Source: Naegleria gruberi (lineage: Eukaryota). From it: a stretch of DNA of 64,000 nucleotides. The first letter of the stretch is position 1. The number at the start of each line of letters is the position of its first letter. Made by a program: the position numbers and the translations under genes. The stretch is taken from assembly GCA_000004985.1 (NCBI GenBank), contig GG738910.1; one strand, written 5' to 3'. The notes beneath the pieces are model-generated. The model was not told the origin of the DNA, did not search any database, and saw only the letters and a program-made list of their open reading frames with translations. Shown one piece after another: positions 2,036-64,000 of the stretch.

Positions 2036-3697
2036 ATGGCGAGACTTTCATGTATTAAAGGTTTATTTAAAATATATATTGCTGTCTTTGCTATTGTTTT
2101 ATTAATTCTAGTGATTATCAACATTCAACGACATGAATCTGTTTTCAAGAAATCATCAACCTTTGAATCTATTCGAAACAAAATTTCGAATATAAATTCG
2201 GATGTATTAACAGATGAAAAAACAAACGAACAACAAAAAGATCAAGTACAAACAATAACTAAACCATCATCAAATTTAAATACAAATATTGCTAATCAAC
2301 AATTGCAAAACAAACAATCAGAAACTACAACACCTCTGATTTGTCTAAATTCCGACTCGAATAGATTGAAAACTAAACAAGAAGAATTATGTGATTCGGA
2401 ATATGGATGTGGAATGCTTCGTCAATGGAAACAAAATCAATTATTAATGTGTGAACGAAAGGAATCCCATCAAAAAACACAATTGACTTGTTATGAACAT
2501 AATAATTATCACTTGCCAACTGCCACCTTTCCACACACAATTTGTGATTCTGAAAATCTAGTCATGGATTTCTCAAAATTAGTAAGAGCACCATGTTTGA
2601 AATATAGACCTGGATATTTTTGTAAAAAGGAAACTTATTACAATTACAAATCTGGAGCATTGATTGGAAATTGTCATAGAACGAATGAATTTTCAAATTT
2701 GAATCATTTTGCAAATGATTTTGGAAAGGATATCTTTTCCAGTTTTATAACATTTGAAGAAAAACAAGTTGATTTGCAAAATGTGAAATTTTTTGATGGA
2801 ATTACTATTTTCGTATCGAGAGAACAAGATGAACATGTCAATATGTTTCATGCAATGAGTGATTTCTTTGCCACACATGTTGTCATTGAAATGTTTAAAC
2901 TGAACAGTTCAAATATTCAAATAGTCATTTTGGATGAGCATTTTGATGGACCTTTTGATTTCTTGTGGGATAAGGCACTTTCCTTCAAGAGACCAATGAA
3001 AAAGGCCTCTTCCTTTTCAAATGGAATGGTAAGATTTGAGAGGGCAATCTTTCAACATGCTGGCTATGCTACACATTTCCTCTCAAATTTGATGAATTTT
3101 AATGAGAATGATGCTACTATGTGTCACTCAAAAATTCCACTCGTTGCCAATTTTGCCAATAGAATTTTGAATGGTTTGGGTATCAAGAAGAGAGAAATCA
3201 ATAAGGGTGATGTGATTCGTGTCTTGTTCATCAGTCGAAGACCTTATGTGAAATTTGGAGTCGAGCACAATTTCATGTCTCGTCAAATTAGCAATGAAGA
3301 AGAGGTGTTGGATCGAATGAAGACTCACAGAGAATATGGCAAGAAATTCACAGTGGAAAGAGTTGATTTTGCACATTTGAAATTAGTTGAACAAATTCAA
3401 AAAGTTCACGATTCAGATTTCTTAATTGGATATCATGGAGCTGGATTGACTCACTCATTGTGGATGCCTGAGGAAACCTCTGCAGTTCTTGAAATTTGGA
3501 ATACAGTAACAACAAGAGGATGGAGATGCTTTGAACAATTCACATTTTGGAAGGGAAACGACTATACATTGTGGAGTAATTCAAATCCAAAGAATTTGAG
3601 AAAGGACAGTTTGGGAGATTACTTGACTGTGGATGTTGCGGACTTTTACAAAACATTTGATAGAATGGTTAACAAGTTGATTGACTCTAGGAATTAG
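2036..3697 (+). CDS. Type II membrane glycosyltransferase, family GT61 (DUF563), EOGT-like (EGF-domain O-GlcNAc transferase-like)
   Basis: 553-aa single-exon ORF. It has an N-terminal cytoplasmic stub plus hydrophobic signal anchor (IYIAVFAIVLLILVIINI). The C-terminal motif IGYHGAGLTHSLWMPEETSAVLEIW...RGWRCFEQFTFWKGNDYTLW matches the GT61/EOGT hallmark (HGAGLTH...V.E......RCY.....G..Y..W). ATG at 2036, TAG at 3695-3697. Confidence 0.8.
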   Translation: MARLSCIKGLFKIYIAVFAIVLLILVIINIQRHESVFKKSSTFESIRNKISNINSDVLTDEKTNEQQKDQVQTITKPSSNLNTNIANQQLQNKQSETTTPLICLNSDSNRLKTKQEELCDSEYGCGMLRQWKQNQLLMCERKESHQKTQLTCYEHNNYHLPTATFPHTICDSENLVMDFSKLVRAPCLKYRPGYFCKKETYYNYKSGALIGNCHRTNEFSNLNHFANDFGKDIFSSFITFEEKQVDLQNVKFFDGITIFVSREQDEHVNMFHAMSDFFATHVVIEMFKLNSSNIQIVILDEHFDGPFDFLWDKALSFKRPMKKASSFSNGMVRFERAIFQHAGYATHFLSNLMNFNENDATMCHSKIPLVANFANRILNGLGIKKREINKGDVIRVLFISRRPYVKFGVEHNFMSRQISNEEEVLDRMKTHREYGKKFTVERVDFAHLKLVEQIQKVHDSDFLIGYHGAGLTHSLWMPEETSAVLEIWNTVTTRGWRCFEQFTFWKGNDYTLWSNSNPKNLRKDSLGDYLTVDVADFYKTFDRMVNKLIDSRN

Positions 3698-23400: not shown

Positions 23401-23744
23401 AAAAAACAACAACAAGCTCATCACCACCTGCTAAATAATTATTTATGATGAAGACCTCCATTTGCTTCCCATTACTACATTCAAACCACAACATGGCTGT
23501 ACATTATAGTAAAGGTTCATGTTCAACTACTACTTTGTTGCTAGAAGAACAAGATGTGGCTGAAGGTGTTGAACGCCTGTCTCCTCTTGTTCTAAACCTT
23601 CGGCTCGACTTCATGCCACCAGTGTTGATTAATAACATTTACTGTCCAAATATAAAGTGGTGTACTTTGTCAGGAGCGTATGGACTGAAAAGGAAATGCA
23701 GAATCGAGATAATGTTTATATTATATAAACTGAACCTTAAAAAA

Positions 23745-26700
23745 ATGGCCACGTTCATTCAAGAAAAACAAATGGCTGTTTCTAAGGGTGCACAAAAATC
23801 ATCAATAATTTCAACCATGATGATGATAATTTTTGTATGCCTATTATTTCTCGCTAACTCGATAAGGGGAATTGACTTTGAGGTTGCGCCTTATTACAAA
23901 GTAACAACTTTATTGAGAGAAGCCGATAAAGTTGAGTGTGTTCGTTTTGGTCCGAAGGGTATATATTATTCCAAGCCATACCAAATAGTTTTATACTCTT
24001 TGGACAGTTCTTCAATGTATGTAACTCAAGGAGCTGGCAATTTTGGCACTGGAGAAAGAGGCGACACTAATGGTGCTAGATACTGGCGTGATATTACAGG
24101 AACATATTCATTAAAATCCAAGATTGATTACCCTTACAAGTTTGCCTTCCATGCTGGAAGATCCAAAACTTACTTTGCACTGGCTAATCATCAAGTAAAG
24201 CTAGACACTGACGATGTTATTTCTCCATTCATTGGTAAACCAAATGTAACAGGTAATGCGGAAGGAGATCCTACTTCTGAGTGTCTGTTGAATGATCCTC
24301 AAGGAGTTGACGTTTCATTTGATGGTGATTTTGTGTATGTGGCTGATACTGGTAACAATCTTATCAAGTATACTTCATACAAAGATGGTGTATTCGTCAT
24401 TAGTAATCTTGCTGGTACTGGTAACACAACAAGTTTAGTTGACGGTGTCAATGCTTTACAGGTTGACCTTAATAGACCTGTTTCTGTAAGGTTTTCCAAA
24501 AAAACAGGTGAGATTTATATTGCAGAAAAGGGAAATCATGTTATTAGAAAAGTTAGAAAAGACAATATTGCTTCTGTAGCGGTTGGTTCAATTGGTATCT
24601 CAGGTTATAACGGAGATTTTAAGAGTTCTTTGGATTCATTTTTGAGTGAACCAAGTGATATTGCGATTTCCACTAGTGGTGTTATATATATTGCTGATTC
24701 TGGTAATAATCGAGTCAGAAAAGTTTATCAAAATGGTATGTTGGTTTTCCTCTATTCAGTTTTTACCTTGGGAATGATATATAGGAACAATAACAACTGT
24801 ATGCGGAAATGGAATGAACATGTATGGAGGCGATTCACTTGATTCTAGAAGAACAGCAATAGGAGGTGTAAATTCTGTTGATGTTAATGAAAATGGAGAA
24901 TTAGTTATTTCTCACATGAATTATATTCGTAAATTGACTCCTATTTGTTATAATGGTTATGTATTCAATTCTGAAACTCATTTGTGTAATCCGTATTTCC
25001 AGTGTTTTGGAAAGAAACATACTGAACCATATGTGTGCTCTGGAAGAGGATCTTGTATTAACCATAATTGTATTTGCAAAGAAGGATTTGAAGGAGAAAA
25101 ATGTGAAACTATATCAAAGGTTTTCAATGTGAAACGATTGTTGGTTTCTGGAGAAGTAACAAATCTACCACCATCAATTTTAGCAGCAAATATGAAACAT
25201 CTTCAAGTGAGCAATACTGGCGACATGATTGTCCTTACACAAGATGGAATCCTTGGAAGACTTGTTGGAAACTCACTGGTTAAAGTTTCTCAATCTAGTC
25301 TGGCATTGTTCTACCTGGAAGAAGATGGTTCAATACTTACAACATCTACTACTTCAATTATCAAGATTGGTATTGATGGAGCTATATTATCTCTTGTAAA
25401 AACAACTAATTTCTATGATGTAGATGGCGTCTCACCAACAAATATTAATATTGGCGCATTTAGTTGTATTACACAAGATCAAGTTTCAAAAGTCTACTAT
25501 GTTACAGAATATTACTCAAATGTTTTTGCAAAAGTTGAAAATGGGAAGTTAGCTTTACTGATTAGTAATACAAAAGGATTTGCAGATGGCTTAAAAAATG
25601 TTGCCAGATCTACCTCTCCTAAATTTGTTTATGCATATGGAGGCACAGTCATATTTTCAGATTATAACAGAATAAGAATGTGGAAAGATTACACAACCAC
25701 AACAATTGCAGGTAATGGTATCGAAGGATACAACGGAAATAATGTACCAAAATTGGCCTGTTCTTTTGGTGAAATTGTTGGGTTTCATGTAGTTAGAAAA
25801 TCAGCAACAGTGTTTTGGATTTACGTTTCTGACAGTTATTCTAGAACAATCAGATTAATCAAAACCAATGAAAATAATGTAACTATAATTGCTGGATCCC
25901 CTGGGACCGGCAAATACATGAATTTTGAGGATAACCCCAAGAAGGCCATTTTTTCATTACCTATTGGTTTATCGATGGTCAATGACACTTTATATTTCAT
26001 TGACCAAGGAAGTAGTAGAATTATGAGTCTTTCACCTGATGGTACTAAACTGACAACCATTGCAGGCGGAAGAGGTGTTTTAAACGTTGGAGAAAATCTA
26101 GACCAACGGTTTTCTTATTTTGGTCCATCCCCTACAGGAATTTATCTTAAAGAATCACCAACAAGGGAATTATTAATTAGTGATAGTAATATTGGCAGAA
26201 TAAGAAAAAGCATTTTTGAAAACAATCTTTGGGGTAATGTGACTACACTTGCTGGTACTTCAACCAGTGAATTGCCAGTTGATAAAGGAATGGATGGTGA
26301 CTGTTTAACTTGCGCCTTCCTAAGACCTTCAAAAATACGATTCGGGGGAAATGAAACTCTACTTGTATCAGAATCGATTAATACTGTCAAACTTATCAAT
26401 GTTGGGCAGGGATCAGTTAGAACACTTGTTGGAACTCCTTACACTAATCCTCTACAAAATCCATCTCTTGTAACTGTCAATACGTCAGCAATAGGATTCC
26501 AGATAGATGGGTTACGGGATGCTATTCTTGTTGGAGATGAACTGGTTTTTGCTGAAAAATCCAGAATTCTTAAGGTCAATTCACAAGGTTTAATAGAAAT
26601 TGTTGCTGGTGATGGAAATGGTTATTCATGTAATTTTGGTAATTACATGTCGGCCAAAATGGCAAAGTTTGGCAATAATGCTGTGGGAACAAAATTGGTA

Positions 26701-29700
26701 ACCTCTCTCGATTATTACGATGGAGAGATTTATATTTTAGAAGAATACGCTCTCAGAAAAGTTAATTCCAAAGGAATAATGATACCAATAATTAGTGGGC
26801 AAGGAACAACGTCTTGGTCGAATGGAGTTAGAAAATTGCCATTACAAGATGCATCAATTCCTGCATGTAGTTTTATGAAAGTTGTTAATGAAAATGAGAT
26901 TTATATTCTCAGTACTGCAGGACAGTTGTATATTGTAAGAAATGGAACTGTTGAGAGACCTATTATAACTAAAGATTTATCTTTTATGGGCCCAGTATAT
27001 TCCCAATTCTATAGCACAAGCGATGGAGAATTTTACATGTTGACTGCAAATACGGTTGAATTAGGTAAAATGAGTTGTCCTTCATTTTCCAAACAAAATG
27101 AAAATGATACATGTGAAAATATGATAACTTGTTTTGGTTTAAAGTCAACAGATCAAAATGTTTGTTCAACGAATGGTAAATGTTCAGCTTTGGATACATG
27201 TATCTGTAATTTTGGTTGGAGTGGTGTTAAATGTAATGAATCAACTGCTCAATTGGTGATTCAAAGCCTGAACCCAAACAGAGTTACCACTGATGATGGA
27301 CTTGATATTGGTTTCAAAACCTCCTCTTCTCCATTGACAAATTTAAAAGTTGATACAAAAACAGGAATTGTTTATTTGCTTTCTGGAGGAAAAACCATTT
27401 CTCTCAACGGCAAAACAAATGATTGGGTTAGATCCAGTGATACAACATCAAAATCTATGATTATTTCTAAAACAACAGGTTACTTCTATTTTTTAAGAGA
27501 ATCTTGCATCTACCAAAGGGGAGCAACTCCTTATCCATATTATTATTCTGGAAATTGCTACACTAAGGGTTCAGTTCTTGGAACTATTTCAACCGCATCA
27601 TATAACAACTTGGAAGATGGTGACTCTGGGGAGGATGGTAGTTTGTATATAGTTGATAGTGGAAATCACGTTGTAAGATTAATATCAGAAGGAGTAATGT
27701 CAACCTTTTGTGGTAGTTTTGGTGTTTCTGGTTTATTTATCAACTCTAATTCCTCAACCAAAACTTTTTTGAAATCACCAAGGGCCATCAAAGTCACCTC
27801 AAACGGGGTTTACATTGCTGATAGTGGAAATTACAGAATTCTTTTTATTGATAAATCTGGACATGTCCAAAAAATTGCAGGGTCATCAAATGGTACATCA
27901 AATGGGGATGGAAAAGCAACTCTGACAAATATTTTCCCTTCTAATTCATTGGATTATTCAGAGAGTCGCCAAGAACTGTACTTTATAGATAATAATAGAG
28001 ATGAGATGAATTCAGGGAGTGTAAAAGTAAGAAAGATTACCAAAGATGGATATGTTGAAACGTTGTTTGGTTATTACGAGAGGGATCCATATTCAAACTT
28101 AACAGTTCCAATGACCATCACACTGGAAAAGGATACCAGTTTCTATGCAGCAAATTCTTTGGCTGTTTCAGGTGATTACTTGTATTTAACATTTGATTCT
28201 GTGAAATTGATTGCAAAAGTTTCACTTTCCACAAATACCTTGTATGTGGTTTCCAAAATAGGTTCAGTCCTGAATGGTGATGGCTTTCATGTCGGTTTTA
28301 CCACCTTCCAACACCCAAGTGCACCATATTTCCATAGTATTACTCGTACTTTGTATTGGGTTGAAATGTCCTCAATAAGAATGATGAGAGATAACAAAGT
28401 TTACACCGTGGTTGGCCTTAATTCAAACATTCCTTCCTTTGGAAAGATGAAACCATTGTGGAAAGATATTTCTCCAAAAGGAATTGCACTTTCATCAACT
28501 GGAGAGTTATATTTTTCTGATGGACAGCATGTCATTTATAAGATTCTAAATTCAAGATCTGATATTGAAATTGTTTGGGGAAAGAAAGGTGTTTATGGAA
28601 GTGCTGACACTCTTCTAGAAAATCCAACTGCTATTTTTATTAATTCCAAAGATGAACTGTATATTGCTGATTCATACAGAATAATCAAGTTTGACATCAC
28701 CTCCAAGAAAATTACTAAAATAGTGAGTAAGAGTGATGTATATTTTGGTATATGTTCATCAGTGATAGAACTTTCAACAGGAGAAATAGTCTATGTGGAT
28801 TCTTATTTTAAAAAAGTTAGAATGATTCTCAACAATGGTACAAATATTATAATCGCTGGTGGTGGTTTAAAAACAGGTGTTTCGAATGGTGATCTTGCAA
28901 CAAAACTACTTTTCACCACTCCTGTTTCAGTTCAAGAAATCAACACAGGAGTATTACTTTTGCTGGAGCAAAACTCTTTGATCAAGATGACTTGGTCTCC
29001 ATCTAGAAATGGTTATATTTGTTCAATAATTGCTGGAAAGGGCTTATATAGTATGACTGCCTCAGGAAATGGTGGTCTTGCGATAAATGCTGTTATCTAT
29101 AATTTTGCTATGAGTTACAATACATTTACGAAAGAGGTTTATCTTCTTGACAATGTTGAGTCAAGAATTATCACTCCGTACTGTCCAGAAGGGTTCACTT
29201 TTAATATTTCAAATGAGACATGTCAGCCAGTTGATATGTGTTTTGGTTTTAATTCAAATGACAACAGAGCGTGTTCTGGAAGAGGTGAGTGCGTTGGTCT
29301 TGATGCATGTAATTGTTTTGGAGGTTACAGTGGAATCAAGTGTGAAATAATGTGTCACAAAACATGTGAAGGAACTGTTGTGGACGCATCATTCATGTTA
29401 ACGGAATTCTCAACTGATTTTAGCAAACCTGGCAATTTGGTGGTAGATTCTGAGTACATTTATGTTTCTGATTCTGAAGACAATGTAGTTAAACGTTTTG
29501 ATAAGGGTGGATATTCTTCAATTTATTGTGGAATTGAAGGACAAAGTGGCAACCAAGGAAATGGTTTACCAGGAACTGAAGCCACACTAAATTCACCTCT
29601 AGGTTTAAGTGTATACAATAATGAACTATTTATTGCTGATTTTAACAATAGTGTCATCAGAAAGGTTGACGCTTTTGGGTTTGTTGATGTTGCATTCAAT

Positions 29701-32700
29701 ACAACAGAAAAACCTCTCAACATTATTGCCAGGGGCGAAAACGTATTTTACTATACAGATTCCACTTCATTGTACATGATTAACCAATCAGTTATTAGTA
29801 CCATTGCAACAGGATTTGATAGTCCTTATGGATTGTTCTATTATTCAAATACGTCCAACATGGAGGAAAGTTTACTAGTTGCAGATACCAATAATAACTC
29901 AATCAAGAAGGTATCTCTCTCTGATAGACAAGTTACCATAATTCTTTCTAATTTGAATTCTCCTAAAGGACTATTCATTGATTCTTTTGGTGATCTTTAT
30001 ATTGCTGACAGTGGATCAAACCAAATTTTAAAGTATTCAGGAGGTGTTTTGAAGGTAATTGCAGGAACATCCAATTCCTCAATGAATGGTACAGATGGTG
30101 CAATCAATTCACTTCAAGCAATTCTGCACTCTCCTAGTGATCTTATTGTAACAGATGAAGGAATTATTTATTTCACCGATTCACAAGGATATGCCGTGAA
30201 AACTCTCACTCCTGTTTGTGATAAAATTTCCATGTATGATCCAATTTTAAGAAAGTGTTTCCGACCTCTACTTTGTTTCAATTTTGGTATTGATGATAAG
30301 AGAGCTTGTAGCTCTAATGGTCAATGTGTTGCAGAGAATACCTGTAATTGTAATGATAATTGGGGAGGGGATGATTGTTCCATTCCATCATGTTTCAACA
30401 TTTCTGCTTCAAGTACCACTACGGTTTGTTCTGGACATGGTTTGTGTATTGATCATAATACTTGTCGATGTGATACTGGTTGGTCTGGTGCTGACTGTTC
30501 AATTGCATCATGTTATGGTATCAAGGGTGATAACAGTTCAGTATGTTACGGAAATGGCCAGTGTGTCGGTTTTAATCAATGTTCTTGTAATAATGGATGG
30601 TCTGATTTCGATTGTTTGACACCTTCGTGCTTTGGCTTGACCTATGATTTGGATTCTTCATGTTCTGGAAATGGCAAATGTATTTCTAATGATACTTGTG
30701 AATGTTATTTAGGTTATCAAGGTCCTGATTGCTCTACAGTGTCAGTCGATCCATTCCAAGTATACAATCCAGTACTAACTGTTAAGACTATTGGTTCTTT
30801 GAACAAACCAAAAGGAGTTACAGTATCTTCGAGTGGTGATATTTATTTCAGCGATACTAGCAACAATAAGTTGAAGAAGATATTACAATCTGATTGGTCT
30901 GTATCTCTTATTGCTGGAACTGGTACTGGTTCGTTTTCAGGTGATGGATCTTCACCAACAGCAGCCACTATTAATAATCCTATTGGTTTGGATATTACAG
31001 AAAACGGAGAAGTTTATTTTGCTGATTCAAATAACAATAGAGTTAGAAAATGTAGTTATGATGGTAAATTAATCTCGACAGTGGTCCAAGTTACATCTCC
31101 TCAACAAGTCAAAATTGACGAATACAATAATCGATTGTGGATTGTTGCTTCTGGAGGAGTTTACATGTATGATTTGAATATTGCAAATATGACCCTTGTA
31201 TACAGTAATGATCTCAATACTCCATTCGGAATTGATATTGGATATCAAGGTAAAATAGTGTACATTACAGACAAATCAAATCATGTTATTAGAAAGCTCG
31301 CAAAAAGAGGTAATTCATATGTTCAATCTATTTATTTTGGAAGTAAGGGAGTAACTGGAACCTACTCATCAACATCTAATATGAATAACCCAATGGGTAT
31401 ATCAGTAACTAATGGTAATAGTATTATATTTTCTGATTCCTCTAATCATGTAATTAAACTGATTTCTCATGGAGTTAACAAGACAACATCAGTTATTGTT
31501 GGTACTGGATCTTCATCAGGTTATTCAGCAACAGAAACTAAACCTCTTTCCATGGCTCTAAATACTCCCGGTGATGTATTTGTGAATGAGAAAGGAATTT
31601 ATATTGCTGATACCAATGACAACGCCATTAGAATTATTAAGATTTCATGTCCATACACTAACTATGTTTTCAATTATTATACTTCCAAGTGTGAATTTGA
31701 TACCAGAATTTCTTGTAATAAGATTTCATTTTCTTCACCAAATGTTTGTAATGGTAAAGGTGTTTGTTATGGAGTTGATAAATGCAACTGTACAAGTGGG
31801 TGGAATGGTACTTTTTGTGAAATACCTATTTGTTTTGGAGTGTCCAATCCAAAACTAGCTTGTAGTTCAAATGGTCAATGTATTTCTAACAATACTTGTT
31901 CCTGTAATGATGGTTGGTTTGGATCTATTTGTCAAAATCCATCTTGTTTTGGAATTTCATATAATGATTCAAATACCTGTTCTGGAAATGGTCAATGTAT
32001 TGCAAATAATACTTGCTCGTGTGATAATTTTTACGAAGGCAAAAATTGTTCTCTTCCAAAATGTTTTGGTATTAATTCAGACAGCTCATTGGTTTGTAGT
32101 GGAAATGGTTTATGCGTTAGCCCAGATACATGTAATTGTACTAGCGGTTATTTTGGAAATGATTGTTTTTACACAAATTGTTTTGGAATATTGTCAGGAG
32201 AAACTACTGTATGTTCCTCAAAAGGAAACTGTACTGCTCCAAATACTTGTTTTTGTGAAAAAGGGTATTATGGGAATCAGTGTCAAAACTTTACTTGTTT
32301 TGGAATTGACTCATTCAGCCCCAATGCTTGCTCATCTCGTGGAAGTTGTATTGACATCGATAAATGTAAATGTGGAGATGATTTTTATGGTTCTAATTGC
32401 ACAGGGTTTGATTGCTTTGGTTATCCATCAACTAATCCAAATACTTGTTCTGGTAAGGGTGATTGTTTAAATCCAAACACTTGTATCTGTAATGATGGTT
32501 ATGCAGGTGAAAGGTGTGAAATTGCTCGTTGTTTTGGAGTTTATGGAAATGAATCAAACGTATGTGATTCACATGGTGAGTGTGTATCCTTAGATAACTG
32601 TACATGTACATCACTTCATCATTATGGAGATAATTGCGATAGATTTGATTGTTTTGGAATTGAGAGTAGCAATTCAAGTGTTTGCTCTTCCCATGGAAAT

Positions 32701-35700
32701 TGTACTTTCCTTGATATTTGTAATTGTTCGAAAGGTTACGAAGGTTTATCATGTTCTGAATTCAATTGTTTTGGAAAAAAGCCAATCGCTTCTGATATTT
32801 GTTCTGGAAATGGCATTTGTACTGGTCCAAATATATGTAATTGCAAAGATGGGTATTTTGGAGATGATTGTCAGATAACCAATTGTTATGGAATTCATAG
32901 TAATGAGTCTAGTGTATGTTCATCAAATGGTAGATGTATTTCTTTAGATTCTTGCTCTTGCTCTTTTGGATATTATGGAGAGATGTGTCAAGAATATGAT
33001 TGTTTTGGAATGAAACACTCAAATACAAGTGTTTGTTCACAACATGGAACATGTCATTCTCCAAATAATTGCACTTGTAATGATGGATATCATGGTGCAG
33101 ACTGTGATAGATTCAATTGTTTTGGAGTTTCTTCTTTCAATAGTTCAGTATGTTCATCAAGAGGTTACTGCAAATTACCAAATGTCTGTTCTTGCACTGG
33201 AACTTTTTATGGTGAAAATTGTGAACAATATGACTGTTTTGGAATCAATTATCAAAACTCAAATGTTTGTTCCTCACACGGTAAATGTATTGGGGCTGAT
33301 GCTTGTCAGTGTTATGATGGATATATATCTAGTAATTGTTCTGTTCCTCTTTGCTTTGGTATTTCAGCTCTTAACTCGTCAGTTTGTAGAGGACATGGTT
33401 ATTGTACTTCACCTAATAAGTGTGACTGCATTTCGAATCAAGATACAAAGTTTGATGGACAGGAATGTCAAAATCATTTCTGTAAGGAATACGATGGAAC
33501 CTTAATAAGGTTTAACAATAATTCAGTTTGTAGTGGTTCTGGAGTTTGTAAGTTAAATCGAGTCATGAAGAGAAGCGAATGTGTATGTAGTGAAAATTAT
33601 GGAGGAGAGTCTTGTGAAATGCCAAAATGTTTCGGTATTTTACAAAATGAGACAAGTGCTTGTAACAACAATGGATTTTGTTCAAGTGTAGATACTTGTG
33701 AATGTCATCATAATGATTTTTTTGGATATTGGAAGGGTTCTAATTGTACACAATGCCAAGTTCCATATTCTGGATCCAAATGTAATGTTATTAAGGAGTG
33801 CAATGCTTCTGTCTGTCATAACAATGGTATTTGTGACGAGTACATGACTTGCATTTGTAATTCTAATCAAACACATGGTTTCTGGAATGCAGAATTTTGT
33901 AACGTTTGTCAAGAAGGTTATTATGGAAAGGAGTGTTCCACGCAAATGCTTGGCCCTCTTAAATTAAGTGGAGAGGCATCATCCATGACATTCAAGATGA
34001 ATGCTCCAATTTCATTTTCAAAGACAAGTGTTAACTGTACAAGATTTTTGAGGGAAGATTCTTATGAAACTGTTGGAGGATTGCAATCTATTTGTTCTTG
34101 GAATAATAGTATGATGAAAGTGACATTTGGTGCTTCATTTGATGTTAAATCAGGTAGAATTATTTATTTGAATAGATTGGTCTTTGATGAGAGCGGATAT
34201 GATTACGAACCGATCAAATTGGAATATCCAGATACACCAATCCTTCCTACTGCCATTGTCGAATCAAACAAATTAGTTGGATCTTGCGACAGTATTATAA
34301 TTGATGGAAGTAAGAGTTACTCTCCTGATTCTAAACCTCTTTCATTTTCTTGGAAAGTTGTTAATTCTCCAAATATTAATAGTTTGCAACACATTGTACA
34401 ATCACAAACAAGATCTATTCTTTCCATTGATAGTAGCAATTGCTCTACAGGTGTTCACATTTTCGAGCTGATTGTAAAGAGTTCTATATTAGAATTACAA
34501 AGTATTCCACTAACAATTTCCATCACTAAGGCAGAAATTCCTCTACCAACTATTTCCATAGATGCACAAGCCTCCCCTCTCACAACTTCAAAGTTACCAT
34601 ACAAGATAATGAAAAGTACTGTTTTGCCTGATTGTGCTCAATCTTTGAGTATGATATATAATTGGAAGCTGGTGAGCGGTAGAAACGATATTGTTTTTGA
34701 GATGGATCAATTTAATAATTTAGTAATTATCAATTACTTCCTGGAAGATTCAAGTTATGAATTTGAATGTAGTGTATTTGTGGAAGGACATGCAGAAAAT
34801 ATTATTACTTCAAAAGTTTCCTTTAGTACCAAGATTAGTCCTTTATCTTCTGAAATCAGACTTGTTGAATTATCAACCAATTATACTATTATTCAATTAT
34901 TGTTCAGGGATCCAGAAATTGTTAATGAAGAGGTTAATGTTGAATGGGAGTGTATTGATTTGGACACCAAACTGAATTGTTCATCGTCACTTCTTTCCCA
35001 TCTTTCAACTTTACCTCTTAACTCTGAATTTTTAATATCTGGAAGTTTGTTATCAAATTACAACAACATATCCTTGAAATCTACTATCAAGAAGGGAAAG
35101 AGAATTTCCAATAGTGAACTCGTAGTAACCATTCCTCAAAAAACACTCCCTCCAATTATTTCACCTGTTTATCTGTCGCCAAGTAATTTAGCTCTAGGAT
35201 CGAGTATTAATCTTCAATTTGGTGTAACTATCGATGGAAGTGATGACATTAGTTCAGCTATTAGTAGAAAATGGACTCTCAACAATGTTGTTATTGAAAA
35301 ATCAGATAGTATGAGACTGGATCCATCTGAATCCAACTCCTTAATATTAGCAACTAATTCTTTTACAGAAGGGGCCACATACAAGATTGATTTCAAAGTG
35401 ACTGACCAAAGAAATAATCAATTTTCAATCTATTCCTATTCTTTTTCAATCAAGATTTCTCCAAAGTGTACATGTACAATTAGTCCATCATCTGGTTATG
35501 CTCTCCAAACTCTTTTTACATTTGCATGTACTGATTGTAAAAATAATCAAGGACCTTTATCGTTCGAATATGGCTTCATAGATAGTCGTTACCAAACTAG
35601 AGTAACCTTATCAAAGAGTTCTAAATATTCGGCCGTTCTCCCATCCTCTTATCAAGGAAATACATTGAATCTGTATGCTGTTGTTAGTGACTCTGTAAGT

Positions 35701-37050
35701 CAATCATCAAGTTATTTGAGTGCAGAAGTTCTTGTACCTGTCATTGGTTCACTAGCTGAAGCAAAGAAGAAACAACTTCAATGGAAAACAACAGGTTCCT
35801 CACTCAAAGATGGTGATTATATGAAGAGTGTGTATAGCAATGATGTTATGACAAGTACTTTCACAAAGATGATTGCCTCTTTACTATCAGCAAGATCTGT
35901 TTGTAACGGAAAAGGAGTTCTAAATAATGGAAAATGTCAATGTGATAATGGGTATTCTTCATTTGATTGTAGATATACCACTTCTGATTATGTATCCATT
36001 CAAGAGAGTGTATTTGATTTATCTAACGATTTTAAAGAAACATTTGGTGTTTATCTAGATTCCAAAGATATTCTAAGCGAAAAGTTTGTTGCCAATATTA
36101 TTTTCGGACTTGAAACTTTGACAAATCGTTTTGATTTCTTGAATGAGACATCTTTTGACATTATCTTATCAATTGTTGATCATTTATTGGAAGAACACGA
36201 AAAGTATTCATCAGTTCAAACATCCAATGGTGTAGATACGCTCTTACTCGATATTTTGGATCATTTATATTCTTTTACAGAATATTATGAGATTAAGGAA
36301 CAATTAATGAGCAAATTAATTGAAATTTCCCAAAGACTCTCTTCACTTGAATCAAGAAAAATATTGGTCGGCCAACCTCCTTTAATTCTTTCCAATCAAT
36401 TACAAACTTCAATTACCAACAAACATTTTAGAGAGGAATATTCAGGACTAGTAATTAGATATAATAATTATTCTACTATACTACCAGAGTCTTTCTCAAA
36501 GCATCTATCCAATCAGCCAAAGAGAGTACCAGTTACTTACAGTTGGTTTGCTCTTAAAGATCTTTCACAATTCATATTACCAGGAAATGCATCAAGAATT
36601 ATCTCAAAATATGTTGTGAAATTCACATTGGAAAAGGTTAAATATTTGGAATTATTGAAAGAACCTGTGAAATTTGAAATACCACTCATTGAACCAATAG
36701 ACATGAATTCTAATAAGTATTCCTGTATTGACTTTTCCAACATGACAATGCCAGTGGAAAGTGAGTGCCAATTTAAAGTGGAAAATGGAATAGCCTCTTG
36801 TTCTTGCTTAAACTACTCAAGTACCGTTGGAATAACATTCTTTGAACGCAGTCGAAGAGCTCCATCAATTCTTGCAGTTAAAACTGCACCACTTTGGGAA
36901 TTATTCTCTCTACTCACAATTCCATTTGCAATAATTTTGGTTGGTTGTGCATTCACAATTAAAACGATTTTTAACAGAAAAATCAGCCTTGACAATAATC
37001 AATTCGAATTGAGAAACGTGGACAGCATGATTGTGACGGAATCAGCTTAA
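23745..37050 (+). CDS. Giant (about 4,400 aa) secreted type I membrane protein. Domain order: NHL beta-propeller(s), interspersed single EGFs, array of more than 25 tenascin-type EGF repeats, laminin-type EGF, PKD/REJ-like region, CxC-ISP module, GPS-like motif, TM, 26-aa tail
   Basis: Exon 1 is 23745..24735, starting MATFIQEKQMAVSKGAQKSSIISTMMMIIFVCLLFLANSIRG with a signal peptide and NHL motifs (IYIAEKGNHVIRKV, IYIADSGNNRVRKV). A 49-nt intron at 24736..24784 (GTATGT...ATAG, phase 1) follows. Exon 2 is 24785..37050, the 4,078-aa ORF. The EGF array spans about 31650-33950. Other landmarks are the KCTCTISPSSGYALQTLFTFACTDCKN motif, ASCSCLNYSSTVGITF juxtamembrane, and TM LFSLLTIPFAIILVGCAFTI. 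The 5' end (gaaccttaaaaaaatg) is shared with the 46962 gene. Confidence 0.8.
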
Positions 37051-38253: not shown

Positions 38254-41200
38254 TTAAACAGACTTCATTTCAACTCCTTGTTTTGAGGAATTTGTAGTTT
38301 CTGGTTTCATTCTCTTAACAACACAATAACCAAAAATTCCCAATACAATAAAGGCAATAATGATAAAGCAAATAATCAAAAAAGCCCACAAAATCCAGAA
38401 TAACTCAGAGATTCCCTTTGGAGTTTCAGGATTAACTTGTTTTTCAATTGGAACAGATGATAAAATACCAACTCTAACATTTTCTGAACATTCACATTGG
38501 CCAGAATTAGAATTGAAGGAGAATTTACATGAAGAAGCATCAATGACTTGACCATTTGTAACTTGAATGCACGAATAAGTTGCCTTATCATTAAAAGTTT
38601 GTGTAAGTGGCAAGGAATGAGTTATTGGAGAGGAATAGTTTGTAATAGATGTTGAGAATTTAATTTCAGATAAATCAGAGACAATAGTATTAGTTGTACC
38701 TTCTTGTTGAGGAGTTACATATTGAGAAACATCCTTAATAATCATCCAAATGTAATTGACTGGCTTTCTGAGAGAGACACTTTGTAACCTTTGAGAAACA
38801 GTTGAAGGAAGAGTTAATGAAGTTTGACTTTCTGTCAAAACTTGTGAATCAAAAGTATTCTTAAATTGCTTGTTGAATTGATGAACTGCAAAATTAGGTT
38901 CAAACTTGAAAGATGATTGACCAACAAGAACCTTTCTTGAAAGTAATGAAACCACCATGTGACAACTTTCCATCAATTCTGAATAGTCATACGAAGGCAA
39001 AGTCTTTAAATAAGAATGCATGGAATTGAGGGACGAAAGCAACAACCTTTCAACACCAACTTCAAATTGGAATAATGGAGTGTTTTCAGCATCATTCAAG
39101 GTTGACTTGATAATATTCATACTCATGTTATAGACATTAGCAGAAACGTAACTCTTCAACATAGATTCAATACCGAACATAATGTTAGTAAAAAACCTTC
39201 CAGTTATCTTTTCTCCATTTTCATTCTTGACTTGTTGGGAAGAAAAGAAAGCAGTAGCCAAATCTTGAGTAATTTCATTCAAAATTTCATAATCTTCCTT
39301 TGTCATTCTACAGTCAAATGTTGTGTAATCAGCCTCACAAACACATTTTCCATTAACCAATGAACCATGTCCAGAACAATCTTTCTTTACACTTCTTGAT
39401 TTAGGGGCGAGAGAATCTGTCATTCTCTTGAGGACTCTTGAAATGATTGCAGAATTGAAAACAGATCTAGCATAATCACCAGTTGGTAATAATAAGGTGA
39501 TGGCGTTCCATTTTGTCATGTACTCCTTGATATCCTTTACCTTTGATACATATGGAGCTGTAATTTGAACTGATTTCTTGGAAAGAGTTGTTGCAGATGT
39601 TTCAGTATCAATAACCTTAACATACAGTTCAAGATTATTACCAGAATTTGGAGTTGGAAGTTTTTGGTACAATTCTTCATCCTTTGATAAGGTAATTAAA
39701 GCACCTGAGAAATCATCAATAAAACCATATTCGAAAGCATAAGTCTTCTTATCATTTTGACAATTTTCACAATTGAAAGTAAAGATTGTGGTCAAAGCAA
39801 TACCAGAAGTTGGACTAATGGCACAACTACATGCTTTTGGAGGTCTGTTAACAGAGAAGGAATAAGAATATGATGTCTTTTGATTATTTCTCTTATCCAA
39901 GATAGTTAATGAAATGGTATTAGAACTACCTTCATCCAAATATTGAGTATCCAAAATTAGAGAATTTGACAATGATGAACTGATACTCATTGGTGATGTT
40001 AATATAGCATCAATAGCCTTGTCATTCAATAACCATGTTCTTGAGATGAATTGATCTATATTTAAATCACCATTAATAGTGACAACCAATTGAATATTGA
40101 CATAATCTCCCTTATTAACCTTTGAAGAAGATACTTGAACAACGGAGATCAAAGGTGGCATGATTAAATGTTCTGCTTGTTGTGGAAAATTCAAATCAAC
40201 TGATGATTGAACAAATCTACTTCCCTTTCGAATAGTGAGGCTAATTCTAACATTTTCTGCTGAACCAAACATTGACTTTTCAATCTTGTATTGTTCAAGA
40301 AAACCTTGAGACAAGTAATTAACAACATCAACTGGACAAACAGTATTAGTAACAGTGTCCACACATGTCCAAGAATAAGTTGGTTGAACATTTTCAGATT
40401 CTGGATCAGTGAAATCAATTCCAATGGTACTGTATTGAGGAGTAGAATCTAAAACATACATGTTCATTGAGAGTGCTTGAGCTACAGTGTCGATAGTGAC
40501 AAGAGCTGTTGAAAATTTGTTAACATTAGAAGTATCGAAAGCAGAGACTTTGAAAACATATTGTCTTGTTTCAATGGTATTGAAATTGGTAATCTTTAAA
40601 TTCTTGAATGAATCAACTGTGAATTCTACTTGAGGACCACTGATTTGTGTCCATGTGTAATCAATATTTGCAGCAGATTCCATGCATATTGGAATGGACA
40701 GCTTCTTCTTGAATGAAATTGGAACGTCACTAGTCTTGACAGTAACTGAACTACTTTTATATAAGCCATCAATGGAAACAACTGGAACAGCATAGGTAAG
40801 TTTGGTGAAACTGAATTGAATCTTATCAACCAATGAATAAACTTGACTAGTTACAGCCAATTCAAATTGATGAACACCAGCATTCATACCAGAATAGCTA
40901 ATATTCAATTTACTTGGGGAAGCAAGAGTAGAATCCAATAACTTTTGAAGTTCTACCTTATTTGGTGATGACAATACAGTCCATTTGAAATTCAATGTCT
41001 TTCTATCAGGGGAATAACTTTCAGAAGCATCAATTAAAACATCTTCACAACTTCCATAAGTGTCCTTAGCTCCAGATATTGTGGCAATCGGACTCTTTGG
41101 TGATAAAGCACCTTGGACAGTAAATGCCAAATATTGAGCATTGACATTATTTGATTCAAAGTATAAATTATTCAAAGAGATACTATCACCTGCCTTCAAT

Positions 41201-52900: not shown

Positions 52901-53529
52901 GAATTTCTTCAATTAATAACAGAATGCTATTGTCTTTCATTTCAACTAGTTCACATAATTTGGCCAACAAAATTGAGTCAACAATTGAAGTTTATGAGAA
53001 GGTAGAAAATAATAGAAAAGAGACTCAAACAATCACCAAGGATTATTCTATTACTTCAAATGTTATAAGTTTTTCCTTTTTAAGAGACCTCCAAATGAAT
53101 CAATCCATTTCCTTCTCCTTCCCTAGAAATGATCAATTTTCCGCAAGAAGCGAGCAATCATTCGAATATTCATGTATTGTAATTTGGAATATCACTCAAG
53201 TTAGACCAGAAAATGAAAATAATAATTGTAAAATAGTTGTCAACCAAGAAACAATTATTTGTCAATGTCCATATCAAAACCAAACTCAAGTAGGTGTTTT
53301 GAGAACAGCCATTTCGAGACGTGTTTCAGTTGAACAAGTAGCTCAACCTTCAGATTCAAGTAATTTACTCTATCTATTATTTTTACTCTTTTTAGTATTG
53401 TTTATTATTTTAATTGTAATAATAATTGGAATTGTTATTGTATGTCTGGTTAAAAGAAGGAGAAATGGTGGTAGTAAAAAGTCAGCAGCACATGTTGAAA
53501 TGGAGACTGTTAAAACTTCGACAGTTTAG
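46962..53529 (+). CDS. Large secreted type I membrane protein interrupted by two assembly gaps. Domain order: signal peptide, [gap], about 8 NHL repeats, at least 9 near-identical 40-aa EGF repeats, [gap], PKD/REJ-like region, CxC-ISP module, GPS-like motif, TM, tail ending in STV
   Basis: ATG at 46962 (or 46977) opens MNLKKMKTFLVCCLILIIICTVS, which then runs into the N-gap. The frame reopens at 48285 (...NGDYQYATNANLNYPLGVLITPNGEMIISETYGNRIRRV...) and is continuous, through the second gap as X, to TAG at 53527-53529. Landmarks are the PCPCSVSPSTGYALETEFTFSCTNCQN motif, IICQCPYQNQTQVGVL juxtamembrane, and TM LLYLLFLLFLVLFIILIVIIIGIVIVCLV. Exon structure inside the gaps is unknown. Confidence 0.68.
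47033..48284. other. Assembly gap (1,252 N) inside the 46962..53529 gene
   Basis: Run of N. Confidence 1.
49555..50611 (+). repeat. Coding tandem repeat, period 120 bp (40 aa: CDV(V/S)(A/L)C(D/Y/N)GFNSSD(S/P)R(A/V)CN(G/R)HGICEGP(N/D)(I/V)CNC(T/S)TGY(V/I)G(S/P)(F/L)). There are about 9 near-identical copies, running into the gap at 50612
   Basis: Successive 120-nt units differ at only a few positions. The array is truncated by the N-gap, so the copy number is unknown. Confidence 0.8.
50612..51157. other. Assembly gap (546 N) at the end of the 120-bp EGF tandem array
   Basis: Run of N immediately after repeat unit 9. Confidence 1.
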
Positions 53530-63690: not shown

Positions 63691-64000
63691 GGTTTAGATT
63701 TTTAGGCTTGGGTTTTTAGGCTTGGGTTTGGGTTTGGGTTTGGGTTTGGGTTTGGGTTTGGGTTTGGGTTTGGGTTTGGGTTTGGGTTTGGGTTTGGGTT
63801 TGGGTTTGGGTTTGGGTTTGGGTTTGGGTTTGGGTTTGGGTTTGGGTTTGGGTTTGGGTTTGGGTTTGGGTTTGGGTTTGGGTTTGGGTTTGGGTTTGGG
63901 TTTGGGTTTGGGTTTGGGTTTGGGTTTGGGTTTGGGTTTGGGTTTGGGTTTGGGTTTGGGTTTGGGTTTGGGTTTGGGTTTGGGTTTGGGTTTGGGTTTG
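63691..64000 (+). repeat. Telomeric repeat array. Degenerate lead-in (TTTAGATTTTTAGGCTTGGGTTTTTAGGCTTGGG), then about 46 perfect TTTGGG units (63724..64000) running to the window end; the G-rich strand points 5'->3' outward
   Basis: Perfect hexamer periodicity to the last base. It is preceded by variant repeats and by non-coding subtelomeric tandem duplications. Confidence 0.75.

What the first reader, a model, noticed from the sequence alone, without database searches (positions are those of the whole stretch)
2036..3697. EOGT-like (GT61) glycosyltransferase gene sits beside genes whose EGF repeats carry the exact EOGT acceptor consensus
The 2036..3697 protein ends in the GT61/EOGT hallmark IGYHGAGLTHSLWMP...VLEIW...RCFEQ...YTLW and has a type II signal anchor, which is ER/Golgi-lumenal topology. 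Established knowledge: metazoan EOGT adds O-GlcNAc to Ser/Thr in the EGF-domain motif C5-x-x-G-x-(S/T)-G-x-x-C6. Seen in sequence: many EGF repeats of the neighbouring giant genes read CNDGYTGDEC, CEFGFTGNNC, CSNGFSGANC, CNFGWSGVKC, CFGGYSGIKC, CDTGWSGADC and similar, which fit that consensus exactly. Other repeats have V/I/F/Y at the S/T position instead, for example the homogenized CTTGYVGSFC array. Inference: an enzyme-substrate pair is encoded in one subtelomeric neighbourhood, and only some family members would be modifiable.
Basis: partly seen in the sequence, partly recalled or inferred. Interest (0 to 1): 0.75.

Follow-up and report, generated by a model that had tools for sequence, protein, structure and literature searches.

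The report
Naegleria GT61 glycosyltransferase, EGF link unproven
The gene is a real, probably active GT61-family sugar transferase of the amoeba Naegleria gruberi. Nothing in the sequence shows it is the animal-type EGF O-GlcNAc enzyme, or that it is paired with the EGF-repeat genes further along this chromosome end.

Summary
The ORF at 2036-3697 is an intact 553-aa type II membrane protein with a GT61 domain. All six UDP-contact residues of mouse EOGT are present.

The interpretation does not hold up:
- **Source.** The window is a Naegleria gruberi chromosome end. The gene is one of three N. gruberi paralogues in a heterolobosean clade.
- **The 'EOGT hallmark' is GT61-wide.** The motif and the UDP residues are equally present in a clade annotated as core beta-1,2-xylosyltransferase-like.
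- **Similarity.** That clade scores higher against the heterolobosean catalytic-lobe profile (142-176 bits) than mouse EOGT does (about 109 bits).
- **Tree.** Mouse EOGT joins the heterolobosean clade in 1 of 100 bootstraps.
- **Topology.** The protein has an N-terminal anchor and no KDEL-type tail, which is Golgi-like rather than EOGT-like.
- **Acceptor motif.** Only 8 of 41 C-x-x-G-x-x-G-x-x-C motifs carry S/T (19.5%), against a background S+T of 19.8% (p = 0.58). An unrelated O-fucose consensus matches at the same rate.
- **Distance.** The first consensus site lies 12.9 kb and four genes away.
- **Synteny.** Orthologues in N. fowleri, N. lovaniensis and Willaertia have no EGF arrays within 10 kb.

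Verdict: an ordinary member of a known enzyme family, with the enzyme-substrate cluster unsupported.

The parts
2036..3697 (+). Complete CDS of a 553-aa GT61 glycosyltransferase. It is the third N. gruberi paralogue; the public model NAEGRDRAFT_54891 covers only residues 362-553.
   Evidence: ORF; Pfam PF04577 at 3.9e-21; homologues align end to end; P0051 is 100% identical over 192 aa.
2063..2125 (+). N-terminal signal anchor (residues 10-30, LFKIYIAVFAIVLLILVIINI), giving type II topology.
   Evidence: Highest hydropathy window in the protein; AF2 models a helix over residues 3-40.
2144..2320 (+). Low-complexity, disordered stem (residues 37-95).
   Evidence: pLDDT below 50 over residues 37-95; not conserved among homologues.
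2378..2824 (+). N-terminal lobe with the Cys pattern G-x-L-x-x-W-x(6)-C139 ... L-T-C ... C-D-S-x-N-L-x-x-D-F ... G-A-L-x-G-x-C213. C139 and C213 align with mouse EOGT C135 and C187.
   Evidence: Alignments. The direct HMM score to mouse is not significant (4.7 bits); a transitive link runs through P0134.
2846..3484 (+). Pfam GT61 domain (residues 271-483). Together with N269, just upstream, it carries N269, H272, R401, R416, Q453 and H473, which align with mouse EOGT N245, H248, R372, R377, Q412 and H432.
   Evidence: residue roles from PMC13123520.
14150..22405 (+). Gene A: a type I membrane protein with NHL-like, EGF-array, REJ and TM regions. The main ORF is 16292-22405. Three consensus-matching sites lie at 16637-16666, 16871-16900 and 17105-17134. 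Not shown to be linked to the GT61 gene.
   Evidence: Pfam; motifs; TM segment; upstream ORFs.
23445..37050 (+). Gene B: a giant NHL-EGF-REJ protein (ORFs 23445-24842 and 24814-37050). Consensus-matching sites lie at 27205-27234, 29314-29343 and 30469-30498, that is 3 of 15 motifs.
   Evidence: Pfam; motifs.
38254..43920 (-). Gene C: signal peptide, EGF array, PKD/REJ and TM, split over three ORFs. Consensus-matching sites lie at 42566-42595 and 42917-42946, that is 2 of 9 motifs. It contains a 117/351-bp tandem EGF array at 41797-42991.
46962..53529 (+). Gene D: signal peptide, NHL, EGF array, REJ and TM, broken by two assembly gaps. All 10 motifs have V or I at the acceptor position. The homogenised array lies at 49537-50609.
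63722..64000 (+). Telomeric repeat (TTGGGT)x46.5 at the end of the window.
   Evidence: sequence shown.

Best explanation
The gene at 2036-3697 encodes an intact and probably catalytically active GT61 (GT-B fold) glycosyltransferase of Naegleria gruberi.

**Shown**
- It is anchored by one N-terminal transmembrane helix, with a disordered stem and a lumenal catalytic domain.
- It keeps the Asn-Arg-Arg constellation and the His that bind UDP, and probably act on the acceptor, in mouse EOGT and POMGNT2.
- It is one of three N. gruberi paralogues inside a well-supported heterolobosean clade.
- That clade belongs to a protist-wide GT61 assemblage. It is separate from the metazoan EOGT lineage and from the clade annotated as core beta-1,2-xylosyltransferase-like.

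**Inferred**
- It uses a UDP-sugar in the Golgi/ER lumen to glycosylate secretory-pathway glycoproteins.
- Its position at the centromere-proximal edge of a roughly 47-kb subtelomeric cluster of NHL/EGF/REJ surface-protein genes is incidental. It looks like a lineage-specific paralogue that landed in a duplication-prone chromosome end, not an enzyme-substrate gene cluster.

**Unresolved**
- Donor sugar and acceptor are not determined by sequence. My estimates are about 0.25-0.3 for O-glycosylation of Cys-rich or EGF domains (EOGT-like), about 0.2 for pentosylation of N-glycans (XylT-like), and the remainder for another acceptor.
For: - **Family and fold.** Pfam GT61 hit. AF2 model with pLDDT 80 and pTM 0.77. 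Foldseek matches POMGNT2 at E = 6.6e-15 with probability 1.0.
- **Catalytic residues.** N269, H272, R401, R416, Q453 and H473 align with the validated UDP-contact residues of mouse EOGT (PMC13123520).
- **Topology.** Anchor at residues 10-30; the protein ends ...KLIDSRN.
- **Organism and paralogues.** Naegleria and Willaertia homologues are 44-50% identical. N. gruberi P0051 is 100% identical.
- **Tree.** Heterolobosean clade 95% bootstrap. XylT-like clade 99% and excludes the window protein. Mouse EOGT is sister to the heteroloboseans in 1 of 100 replicates.
- **Incidental neighbourhood.**
  - S/T at the acceptor position is 8 of 41, equal to background (p = 0.58), and lower than at other variable positions.
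  - The unrelated O-fucose consensus matches 9 of 51 repeats.
  - The first site is 12.9 kb away.
  - No EGF arrays lie within 10 kb of the orthologues in N. fowleri, N. lovaniensis and W. magna, or of the P0009 contig.
Against: - The best solved-structure sequence match is EOGT (2e-31 with the family profile) rather than POMGNT2 (2e-7).
- The N-lobe Cys pattern resembles EOGT's and is absent from the XylT-like clade.
- Automatic pipelines (UniRef, JGI/KEGG) label relatives as EOGT.
- EGF-bearing type I membrane proteins with eight consensus-matching sites do exist 10-40 kb away. They would pass the enzyme's compartment, so a substrate relationship cannot be excluded.
- The tree is neighbour-joining and unrooted, contains a single verified EOGT sequence, and has no verified plant GT61.
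- The neighbourhoods of the two other N. gruberi paralogues could not be retrieved.
Confidence: 0.6

Rival explanations
1. One reading: the protein is a true EOGT-type enzyme. It adds O-GlcNAc to Ser/Thr in C5-x-x-G-[FYW]-[ST]-G-x-x-C6 of the EGF repeats in the neighbouring giant genes. Enzyme and substrates form one functional subtelomeric neighbourhood.
For: - EOGT is the closest solved-structure sequence hit.
- All six UDP-contact residues are conserved.
- The N-lobe Cys pattern, including equivalents of C135 and C187, is shared with EOGT and not with the XylT-like clade.
- Eight consensus-matching sites sit in three type I membrane proteins of the same 64 kb.
Against: - The conserved residues and the motif are GT61-wide.
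- The catalytic lobe is closer to the XylT-like clade.
- There is no bootstrap support for sisterhood with EOGT.
- The protein has a type II anchor and no KDEL/HDEL, unlike soluble ER-resident EOGT (PMC13123520).
- The motif is at background frequency.
- The nearest site is 12.9 kb and four genes away.
- Linkage is not conserved in three relatives.
- A review notes that related protist and plant sequences have distinct activities (PMC8724618).
Confidence: 0.15
2. The protein is a Golgi glycan-modifying GT61. One example is a core beta-1,2-xylosyl- or arabinosyl-transferase acting on N-glycans, as proposed for GT61 genes of many microalgae and shown in plants and Chlamydomonas.
For: - Type II anchor plus stem is the classical Golgi glycosyltransferase layout.
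- Catalytic-lobe similarity to the XylT-like clade exceeds that to EOGT.
- Close relatives come from algae or protists: Amorphochlora, Gloeochaete, Gefionella and Leptophrys.
- Putative GT61 core XylTs are reported as widespread in microalgae (PMC12507850).
Against: - The window protein lies outside the 99%-supported XylT-like clade.
- That clade lacks the N-lobe Cys pattern of the window family.
- The full-text searches found no report of xylosylated N-glycans or UDP-xylose synthesis in Naegleria.
- The identity of the XylT-like clade rests on pipeline names only.
Confidence: 0.2
3. The subtelomeric copy is a decaying or non-functional duplicate of the two other N. gruberi GT61 genes.
For: - The location is subtelomeric.
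- The duplication is lineage-specific.
- The old public gene model is only a 192-aa fragment.
Against: - The reading frame is uninterrupted over 553 aa with full-length alignment to homologues.
- All catalytic residues are intact.
- The AF2 model is confident.
Confidence: 0.04

Closest known systems
[quoted passage not shown]
   Same: - Same family and GT-B fold.
- Identical residues at N245, H248, R372, R377, Q412 and H432.
- Cys equivalents of C135 and C187, and a similar N-lobe Cys pattern.
- It is the best PDB sequence hit.
   Different: - Only 26% identity over 255 aa, 71 bits.
- The N-lobe match is not significant directly.
- Not sister in the bootstrap tree.
- A type II membrane anchor replaces the signal peptide plus C-terminal HDEL/KDEL.
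- The N263 sequon is not aligned or conserved.
- Activity is untested.
Core beta-1,2-xylosyltransferase-like GT61 clade (e.g. Lingula XP_023931081 'beta-(1,2)-xylosyltransferase-like'; a JGI protein named 'glycoprotein 2-beta-D-xylosyltransferase')
   Same: - The same N-R-R, H, Q and H residues, and the HGAGLTH motif.
- Higher similarity in the catalytic lobe: 105 bits and 26% identity over 319 aa, or 142-176 bits against the family profile.
- Type II Golgi-type layout (established knowledge for plant XylT).
   Different: - The window protein is excluded from this clade at 99% bootstrap.
- The clade lacks the upstream N-lobe Cys motif.
POMGNT2 (GT61; structures 7e9j, 6xi2, 8kb7)
   Same: Same overall fold by Foldseek (E = 6.6e-15, TM about 0.45-0.5) and the same N-R-R constellation (PMC13123520).
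   Different: - Much weaker sequence similarity: 33 bits, C-terminal roughly 100 residues only.
- Lacks the Q412 and H432 equivalents (PMC13123520).
- Carries an extra fibronectin-type domain (established knowledge).
N. gruberi paralogues and heterolobosean orthologues (P0003, P0005; N. fowleri FDP41_012806, N. lovaniensis C9374_005587, Willaertia ABK040_000119)
   Same: 44-50% identity over almost the full length; same architecture and Cys pattern.
   Different: - The window copy is subtelomeric.
- The orthologues sit among unrelated housekeeping or signalling genes with no EGF arrays.

Membership tests
CAZy/Pfam GT61 glycosyltransferases | Significant match to the GT61 domain model | tested here: met
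   PF04577 at 3.9e-21 and 76.2 bits, against a cutoff of 27.
CAZy/Pfam GT61 glycosyltransferases | GT-B fold resembling solved GT61 structures | tested here: met
   AF2 model with pLDDT 80. Foldseek top 16 hits are all POMGNT2, with E down to 6.6e-15.
CAZy/Pfam GT61 glycosyltransferases | N-R-R constellation plus the catalytic-site His (PMC13123520) | tested here: met
   N269, R401, R416 and H272 align with mouse N245, R372, R377 and H248.
Metazoan EOGT | Uridine-contacting Q412 and H432, which separate EOGT from POMGNT2 | tested here: met
   Q453 and H473 are conserved. They are also conserved in the XylT-like clade, so this feature is not diagnostic for EOGT.
Metazoan EOGT | Phylogenetic grouping with metazoan EOGT to the exclusion of other GT61 subfamilies | tested here: not met
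   Mouse EOGT is sister to the heterolobosean clade in 1 of 100 NJ bootstraps. No sequence more than 32% identical to mouse EOGT is among the 150 best representatives, while at least 36 XylT-like ones are. Caveat: NJ method, one EOGT reference, unrooted.
Metazoan EOGT | Soluble ER-lumenal protein: cleavable signal peptide plus C-terminal KDEL/HDEL-type retention signal | tested here: not met
   Uncleaved-type anchor at residues 10-30 followed by a long stem; the C-terminus is ...KLIDSRN. The mouse features are from PMC13123520.
Metazoan EOGT | N-lobe with the C135-C187 disulfide and W207 | tested here: inconclusive
   C139 and C213 align with C135 and C187, and the surrounding Cys pattern is similar. 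W207 aligns with Phe. The sub-HMM score to mouse is 4.7 bits, E = 0.35.
Metazoan EOGT | Transfers GlcNAc from UDP-GlcNAc to Ser/Thr of folded EGF domains | not testable with these tools
   Needs an enzyme assay or glycoproteomics.
Core beta-1,2-xylosyltransferase-like GT61 | Membership of the XylT-like clade | tested here: not met
   The clade is recovered in 99 of 100 bootstraps without the window protein.
Core beta-1,2-xylosyltransferase-like GT61 | Xylose transfer to the core beta-mannose of N-glycans | not testable with these tools
   The full-text searches found no report of xylosylated Naegleria N-glycans or of UDP-xylose synthesis in Naegleria.
Enzyme-substrate gene cluster | Physical adjacency of enzyme and substrate genes | tested here: not met
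   Four genes intervene: 3775-4473, 5145-5978, 6253-8367 and 9628-12452. The first consensus site is at 16637, which is 12.9 kb from the stop codon.
Enzyme-substrate gene cluster | Linkage conserved in related genomes | tested here: not met
   No EGF arrays within 10 kb either side in N. fowleri, N. lovaniensis, W. magna or the P0009 contig.
Enzyme-substrate gene cluster | Acceptor motif enriched above composition in the putative substrates | tested here: not met
   8 of 41 (19.5%) against 19.8% S+T, p = 0.58. Positions 2, 3 and 8 carry 32-41% S/T. The O-fucose consensus control matches 9 of 51.

The most novel reading that the evidence does not exclude
The heterolobosean GT61 clade, including this gene, is a genuine EOGT-type enzyme that puts O-GlcNAc (or another single sugar) on EGF repeats of Naegleria NHL-EGF-REJ surface proteins. 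Extracellular EGF O-glycosylation of this type would then predate animals by a long way. It would not have arisen with the metazoan EGF expansion, as proposed in PMC13123520. The differing S/T, V/I and Y residues at the acceptor position would make paralogous surface proteins differentially modifiable.
Probability: 0.15. Interest if true: 0.65.

Novelty: new member of a known kind. Interest (0 to 1): 0.25.

Why it matters
EOGT-type extracellular O-GlcNAc is currently treated as an animal invention tied to Notch-type EGF proteins. A functional protist counterpart would move its origin deep into eukaryote history. Naegleria would then be a simple system for studying EGF glycosylation.

The evidence here does not get that far. 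It shows a well-preserved GT61 enzyme of unknown specificity. It also shows that 'EOGT' names in UniRef and KEGG-derived annotation are applied to GT61 proteins of quite different clades. One example is a Lingula protein that RefSeq calls beta-1,2-xylosyltransferase-like.

The practical value is modest: a corrected full-length gene model for a truncated N. gruberi entry, and a clearly defined biochemical test.

Tried and rejected
- **Protein searches.** Two further word-indexed searches, one with the family alignment and one with mouse EOGT and POMGNT2 fragments added, did not retrieve any metazoan EOGT, POMGNT2 or plant GT61. No verified plant reference could go into the tree.
- **Supplement alignment.** The EOGT alignment in the supplement of PMC13123520 is machine-read and visibly corrupted when compared with the PDB-derived mouse sequence. 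I did not use it for phylogeny.
- **Printed sequences.** Looking for printed GT61 sequences in papers or supplements gave nothing.
- **AlphaFold database.** The Foldseek PDB copy predates the EOGT entry, so only POMGNT2 was matched.
- **NCBIfam.** It has no relevant model.
- **Contig look-ups.** These failed for the window protein, P0003, P0005 and P0051. The neighbourhoods of the other two N. gruberi paralogues are therefore unknown.
- **Literature.** Searches for EOGT in Naegleria, and for Naegleria N-glycan xylose or UDP-xylose, found nothing relevant.
- **Rejected: the six UDP-contact residues prove EOGT identity.** They are equally conserved in the XylT-like clade.
- **Rejected: the UniRef 'EOGT' name as evidence.** The same name is given to a protein that RefSeq calls xylosyltransferase-like.
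Full report
**1. What is at 2036-3697**

The + strand carries an uninterrupted 553-codon ORF from ATG to stop. It matches Pfam Glyco_transf_61 (PF04577) at 3.9e-21 and 76 bits, against a cutoff of 27.

The strongest hydrophobic segment is residues 10-30, LFKIYIAVFAIVLLILVIINI. AlphaFold2, run with an 11-sequence alignment, models it as one long helix. Residues 37-95 follow as a disordered stem with pLDDT below 50. The rest is a confident two-lobe domain (mean pLDDT 80, pTM 0.77).

Foldseek against the PDB returns only POMGNT2 chains as significant hits, which is the other solved GT61. E-values go down to 6.6e-15 with probability 1.0. The protein ends ...KLIDSRN, with no KDEL/HDEL-type signal.

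The descriptive part of the finding about the enzyme is therefore correct.

**2. Source organism and paralogy**

The nearest proteins come from Naegleria lovaniensis, N. fowleri, N. gruberi (two proteins) and Willaertia magna. They are 44-50% identical over 82-98% of the length.

A 192-aa N. gruberi entry (NAEGRDRAFT_54891, P0051) is 100% identical to residues 362-553 with no mismatch. The window is therefore N. gruberi, and the public model is a truncated version of this gene.

N. gruberi has three paralogues: this gene, P0003 and P0005. In the tree they group together, with the W. magna and N. fowleri/N. lovaniensis proteins forming the neighbouring branch.

The window ends in (TTGGGT)x46.5 with 100% unit identity at 63722-64000. 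It is a chromosome end, and the gene lies about 60 kb from the telomere.

**3. Is it EOGT-like in a specific sense?**

*Evidence in favour*
- By sequence, the closest solved structure is mouse EOGT (9wjk). The single-sequence E-value is 7e-12, and the heterolobosean family profile gives 2e-31. POMGNT2 reaches only 2e-7.
- The EOGT structure paper (PMC13123520) defines six UDP-contacting residues: N245, H248, R372, R377, Q412 and H432. Most were validated by mutagenesis.
- In the HMMER alignments these correspond to identical residues in the window protein: N269, H272, R401, R416, Q453 and H473.
- Mouse C135, mutated in Adams-Oliver syndrome and disulfide-bonded to C187, aligns with the invariant C139. 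C187 aligns with C213.
- A Cys pattern is shared by the window family, by a loose set of divergent unnamed sequences and by mouse EOGT. It reads ...G-x-L-x-x-W-x(6)-C ... S/T-L-x-C ... C-x-A/S-x-N-L-x-x-D-F....

*Why these features do not discriminate*
- The exhaustive representative search found 7148 relatives. Its 150 best all score at least 167 bits against the family profile. Mouse EOGT scores 112 bits against the same profile.
- No listed sequence is more than 32% identical to mouse EOGT in the catalytic region. No metazoan EOGT orthologue is therefore among the top 150.
- At least 36 of the top 150 form one clade. Its named members are Lingula 'beta-(1,2)-xylosyltransferase-like' (RefSeq), a Littorina protein and a JGI 'glycoprotein 2-beta-D-xylosyltransferase'.
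- These proteins carry the same N, H, R, R, Q and H residues and a VGMHGAGLTHTLFLP motif. The 'EOGT hallmark' is a GT61 hallmark.
- Over the same catalytic-lobe columns (window residues 264-516), a sub-profile of the heterolobosean family gives:

| Target | Bits |
|---|---|
| XylT-like clade | 142-176 (median 153) |
| Mouse EOGT | 108-110 |
| POMGNT2 | 37 |

- Like-for-like BLASTP gives 105 bits (26% identity over 319 aa, 8% gaps) to the Lingula protein. It gives 71 bits (26% over 255 aa, 13% gaps) to mouse EOGT residues 116-473, rebuilt from PDB alignments.
- The N-lobe resemblance to mouse EOGT is not significant on its own (4.7 bits, E = 0.35). It rests on pattern plus a transitive link: P0134 matches the window-family N-lobe at 39 bits, and it aligns to mouse EOGT from residue 151 onward at 1.6e-28.

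*Tree.* I built a neighbour-joining tree with 100 bootstraps (119 sequences, 320 profile-aligned columns).

| Grouping | Bootstraps of 100 |
|---|---|
| Heterolobosean clade | 95 |
| XylT-like clade (without the window protein or mouse EOGT) | 99 |
| Mouse EOGT inside or with the XylT-like clade | 0 |
| Mouse EOGT sister to the heteroloboseans | 1 |

Mouse EOGT attaches instead to long-branched unnamed sequences (P0111, P0103, P0134).

Orthology with EOGT is not shown either.

*Limits of the tree.* It is a distance method. It is unrooted. It contains one verified EOGT sequence and no verified plant enzyme.

*Other points*
- Automatic names are not evidence. [quoted passage not shown] It gives the same name to the Lingula protein that RefSeq calls xylosyltransferase-like.
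- Topology differs from EOGT. Mouse EOGT is a soluble ER protein with a signal sequence and C-terminal HDEL (PMC13123520). The window protein has the anchor-stem-catalytic layout typical of Golgi transferases.
- GT61 genes of microalgae are generally interpreted as putative core xylosyltransferases. That function is confirmed only in Chlamydomonas (PMC12507850).

**4. The putative substrates**

From 6.2 to 53.5 kb the window holds a family of type I membrane proteins built from NHL repeats, EGF arrays, REJ/PKD modules and one C-terminal TM helix.

| Gene | Coordinates | Content |
|---|---|---|
| NHL-TM | 6253-8367 (-) | NHL repeats, TM |
| NHL-TM | 9628-12452 (+) | NHL repeats, TM |
| A | about 14150-22405 (+) | NHL-like, EGF array, REJ, TM |
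| B | 23445-37050 (+) | NHL, EGF array, REJ |
| C | 38254-43920 (-) | Signal peptide, EGF array, PKD/REJ, TM |
| D | 46962-53529 (+) | Signal peptide, NHL, EGF array, REJ, TM |

Genes B and C are split over overlapping ORFs. Gene D is interrupted by N runs at 47033-48284 and 50612-51157.

A six-frame scan finds 41 C-x-x-G-x-x-G-x-x-C motifs, all inside genes A-D. None has the alternative three-residue spacing.

Eight motifs have Ser or Thr at the acceptor position and an aromatic residue before it. They therefore match the published consensus C5-x-x-G-(Y/F/L)-(T/S)-G-x2-3-C6 (PMC5388531).

**5. Is that more than chance?** It is not.
- S+T makes up 19.8% of these proteins and 17.7% of the EGF segments. 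8 of 41 is 19.5%, with binomial p = 0.58.
- After collapsing identical copies the count is 8 of 34.
- The acceptor position is mostly hydrophobic or aromatic: Y 11, V 6, F 5 and I 4. It has fewer S/T than variable positions 2, 3 and 8, which carry 32-41%.
- As a control I counted an unrelated metazoan EGF consensus, the O-fucose site C2-x-x-x-x-(S/T)-C3. It matches 9 of 51 repeats (18%), again at background.
- For comparison, 9-11 of 36 repeats of mouse NOTCH1 and 15 of 36 of Drosophila Notch carry the O-GlcNAc consensus. Only a subset of those is actually modified (PMC5388531).

**6. Is the enzyme 'beside' them?**

Four genes lie between the GT61 stop (3697) and gene A: 3775-4473(-), 5145-5978(+), 6253-8367(-) and 9628-12452(+). 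The first consensus-matching site is at 16637, which is 12.9 kb away. The gene sits at the inner edge of the family cluster, not inside it.

Around the orthologues I found no EGF-domain genes and no C-x-x-G-x-x-G-x-x-C arrays within 10 kb either side. This holds for N. fowleri, N. lovaniensis and W. magna, and for a more distant homologue on a 29-kb contig. The neighbours are RhoGAP, Ras, Ap4A phosphorylase, a kinase, a ZIP transporter and similar genes.

Contigs for the other two N. gruberi paralogues could not be retrieved.

**7. Most likely explanation**

The gene encodes an active, lumenally oriented, UDP-sugar-dependent GT61 transferase of a heterolobosean clade. Intact frame, intact N-R-R/H site and topology are shown. 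Activity and compartment are inferred.

Its donor and acceptor cannot be read from sequence. I put EOGT-like glycosylation of Cys-rich domains at about 0.25-0.3. I put XylT-like pentosylation of N-glycans at about 0.2. The rest goes to other acceptors.

Its proximity to EGF-array genes is best explained by both being residents of a duplication-prone chromosome end.

The EGF proteins would pass through the enzyme's compartment, so a substrate relationship remains possible. Nothing in motif frequency, spacing or synteny argues for it.

**8. Novelty and score**

This is a new, full-length member of a known enzyme family. Relatives are already auto-annotated, unreliably, as EOGT. The proposed enzyme-substrate cluster is not supported. 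Interest is low to moderate (0.25).

The most novel reading still open is a pre-metazoan EOGT-type system on Naegleria EGF proteins. I give it about 0.15. It would deserve about 0.65 if an enzyme assay or glycoproteomics confirmed it.

Noticed in passing
window 63722-64000: A perfect (TTGGGT)x46.5 telomeric array ends the window. Degenerate TTTTTAGGCTTGGG-like units precede it. The window is a chromosome end of N. gruberi.
   Followed up: partly
window 47033-48284, 50612-51157, 63034-63083: Runs of N (assembly gaps of 1252, 546 and 50 bp). They create spurious long 'ORFs' on both strands (46962-48334, 49937-51191). They also cut the N-terminal part and the EGF array of gene D, so repeat counts there are lower bounds.
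   Followed up: yes
window 41797-42991 (-) and 49537-50609 (+): Two EGF arrays in different genes are tandem DNA repeats of 117 bp (one EGF) nested in 351-bp (three-EGF) super-units. Unit identity is 75-91%, which suggests recent homogenisation or expansion.
   Followed up: partly
window 2036-3697 vs NAEGRDRAFT_54891: The public N. gruberi model for this gene (192 aa) covers only the last third of the 553-aa ORF. The full-length gene appears to be unannotated.
   Followed up: yes
window 23445-24842 / 24814-37050; 43920-43375 / 43366-41867 / 41886-38254: Giant surface-protein genes are split into overlapping or abutting ORFs in different frames. This implies short introns, frameshifts or sequence errors. 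True gene models are longer than the listed ORFs.
   Followed up: no
genes A-D, window 16292-53529: The metazoan O-fucose consensus C2-x-x-x-x-(S/T)-C3 matches 9 of 51 EGF repeats. That is also the background S/T rate. I used it as a control for the O-GlcNAc consensus.
   Followed up: yes
window 956-1981 (+): A 341-aa ORF with an extreme His/Ser/Asn-rich low-complexity stretch (HHSTHHSNNHHSTNHHHSTHHHH...) and no Pfam match.
   Followed up: no
P0086/P0162 (Lingula anatina): [quoted passage not shown] The UniRef EOGT label is applied across GT61 subfamilies and is not diagnostic.
   Followed up: partly
L005 20846-21749 (N. lovaniensis): An NHL-repeat gene (weak Pfam hit) lies about 9 kb from the N. 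lovaniensis GT61 orthologue, but no EGF motifs are present in that locus.
   Followed up: partly
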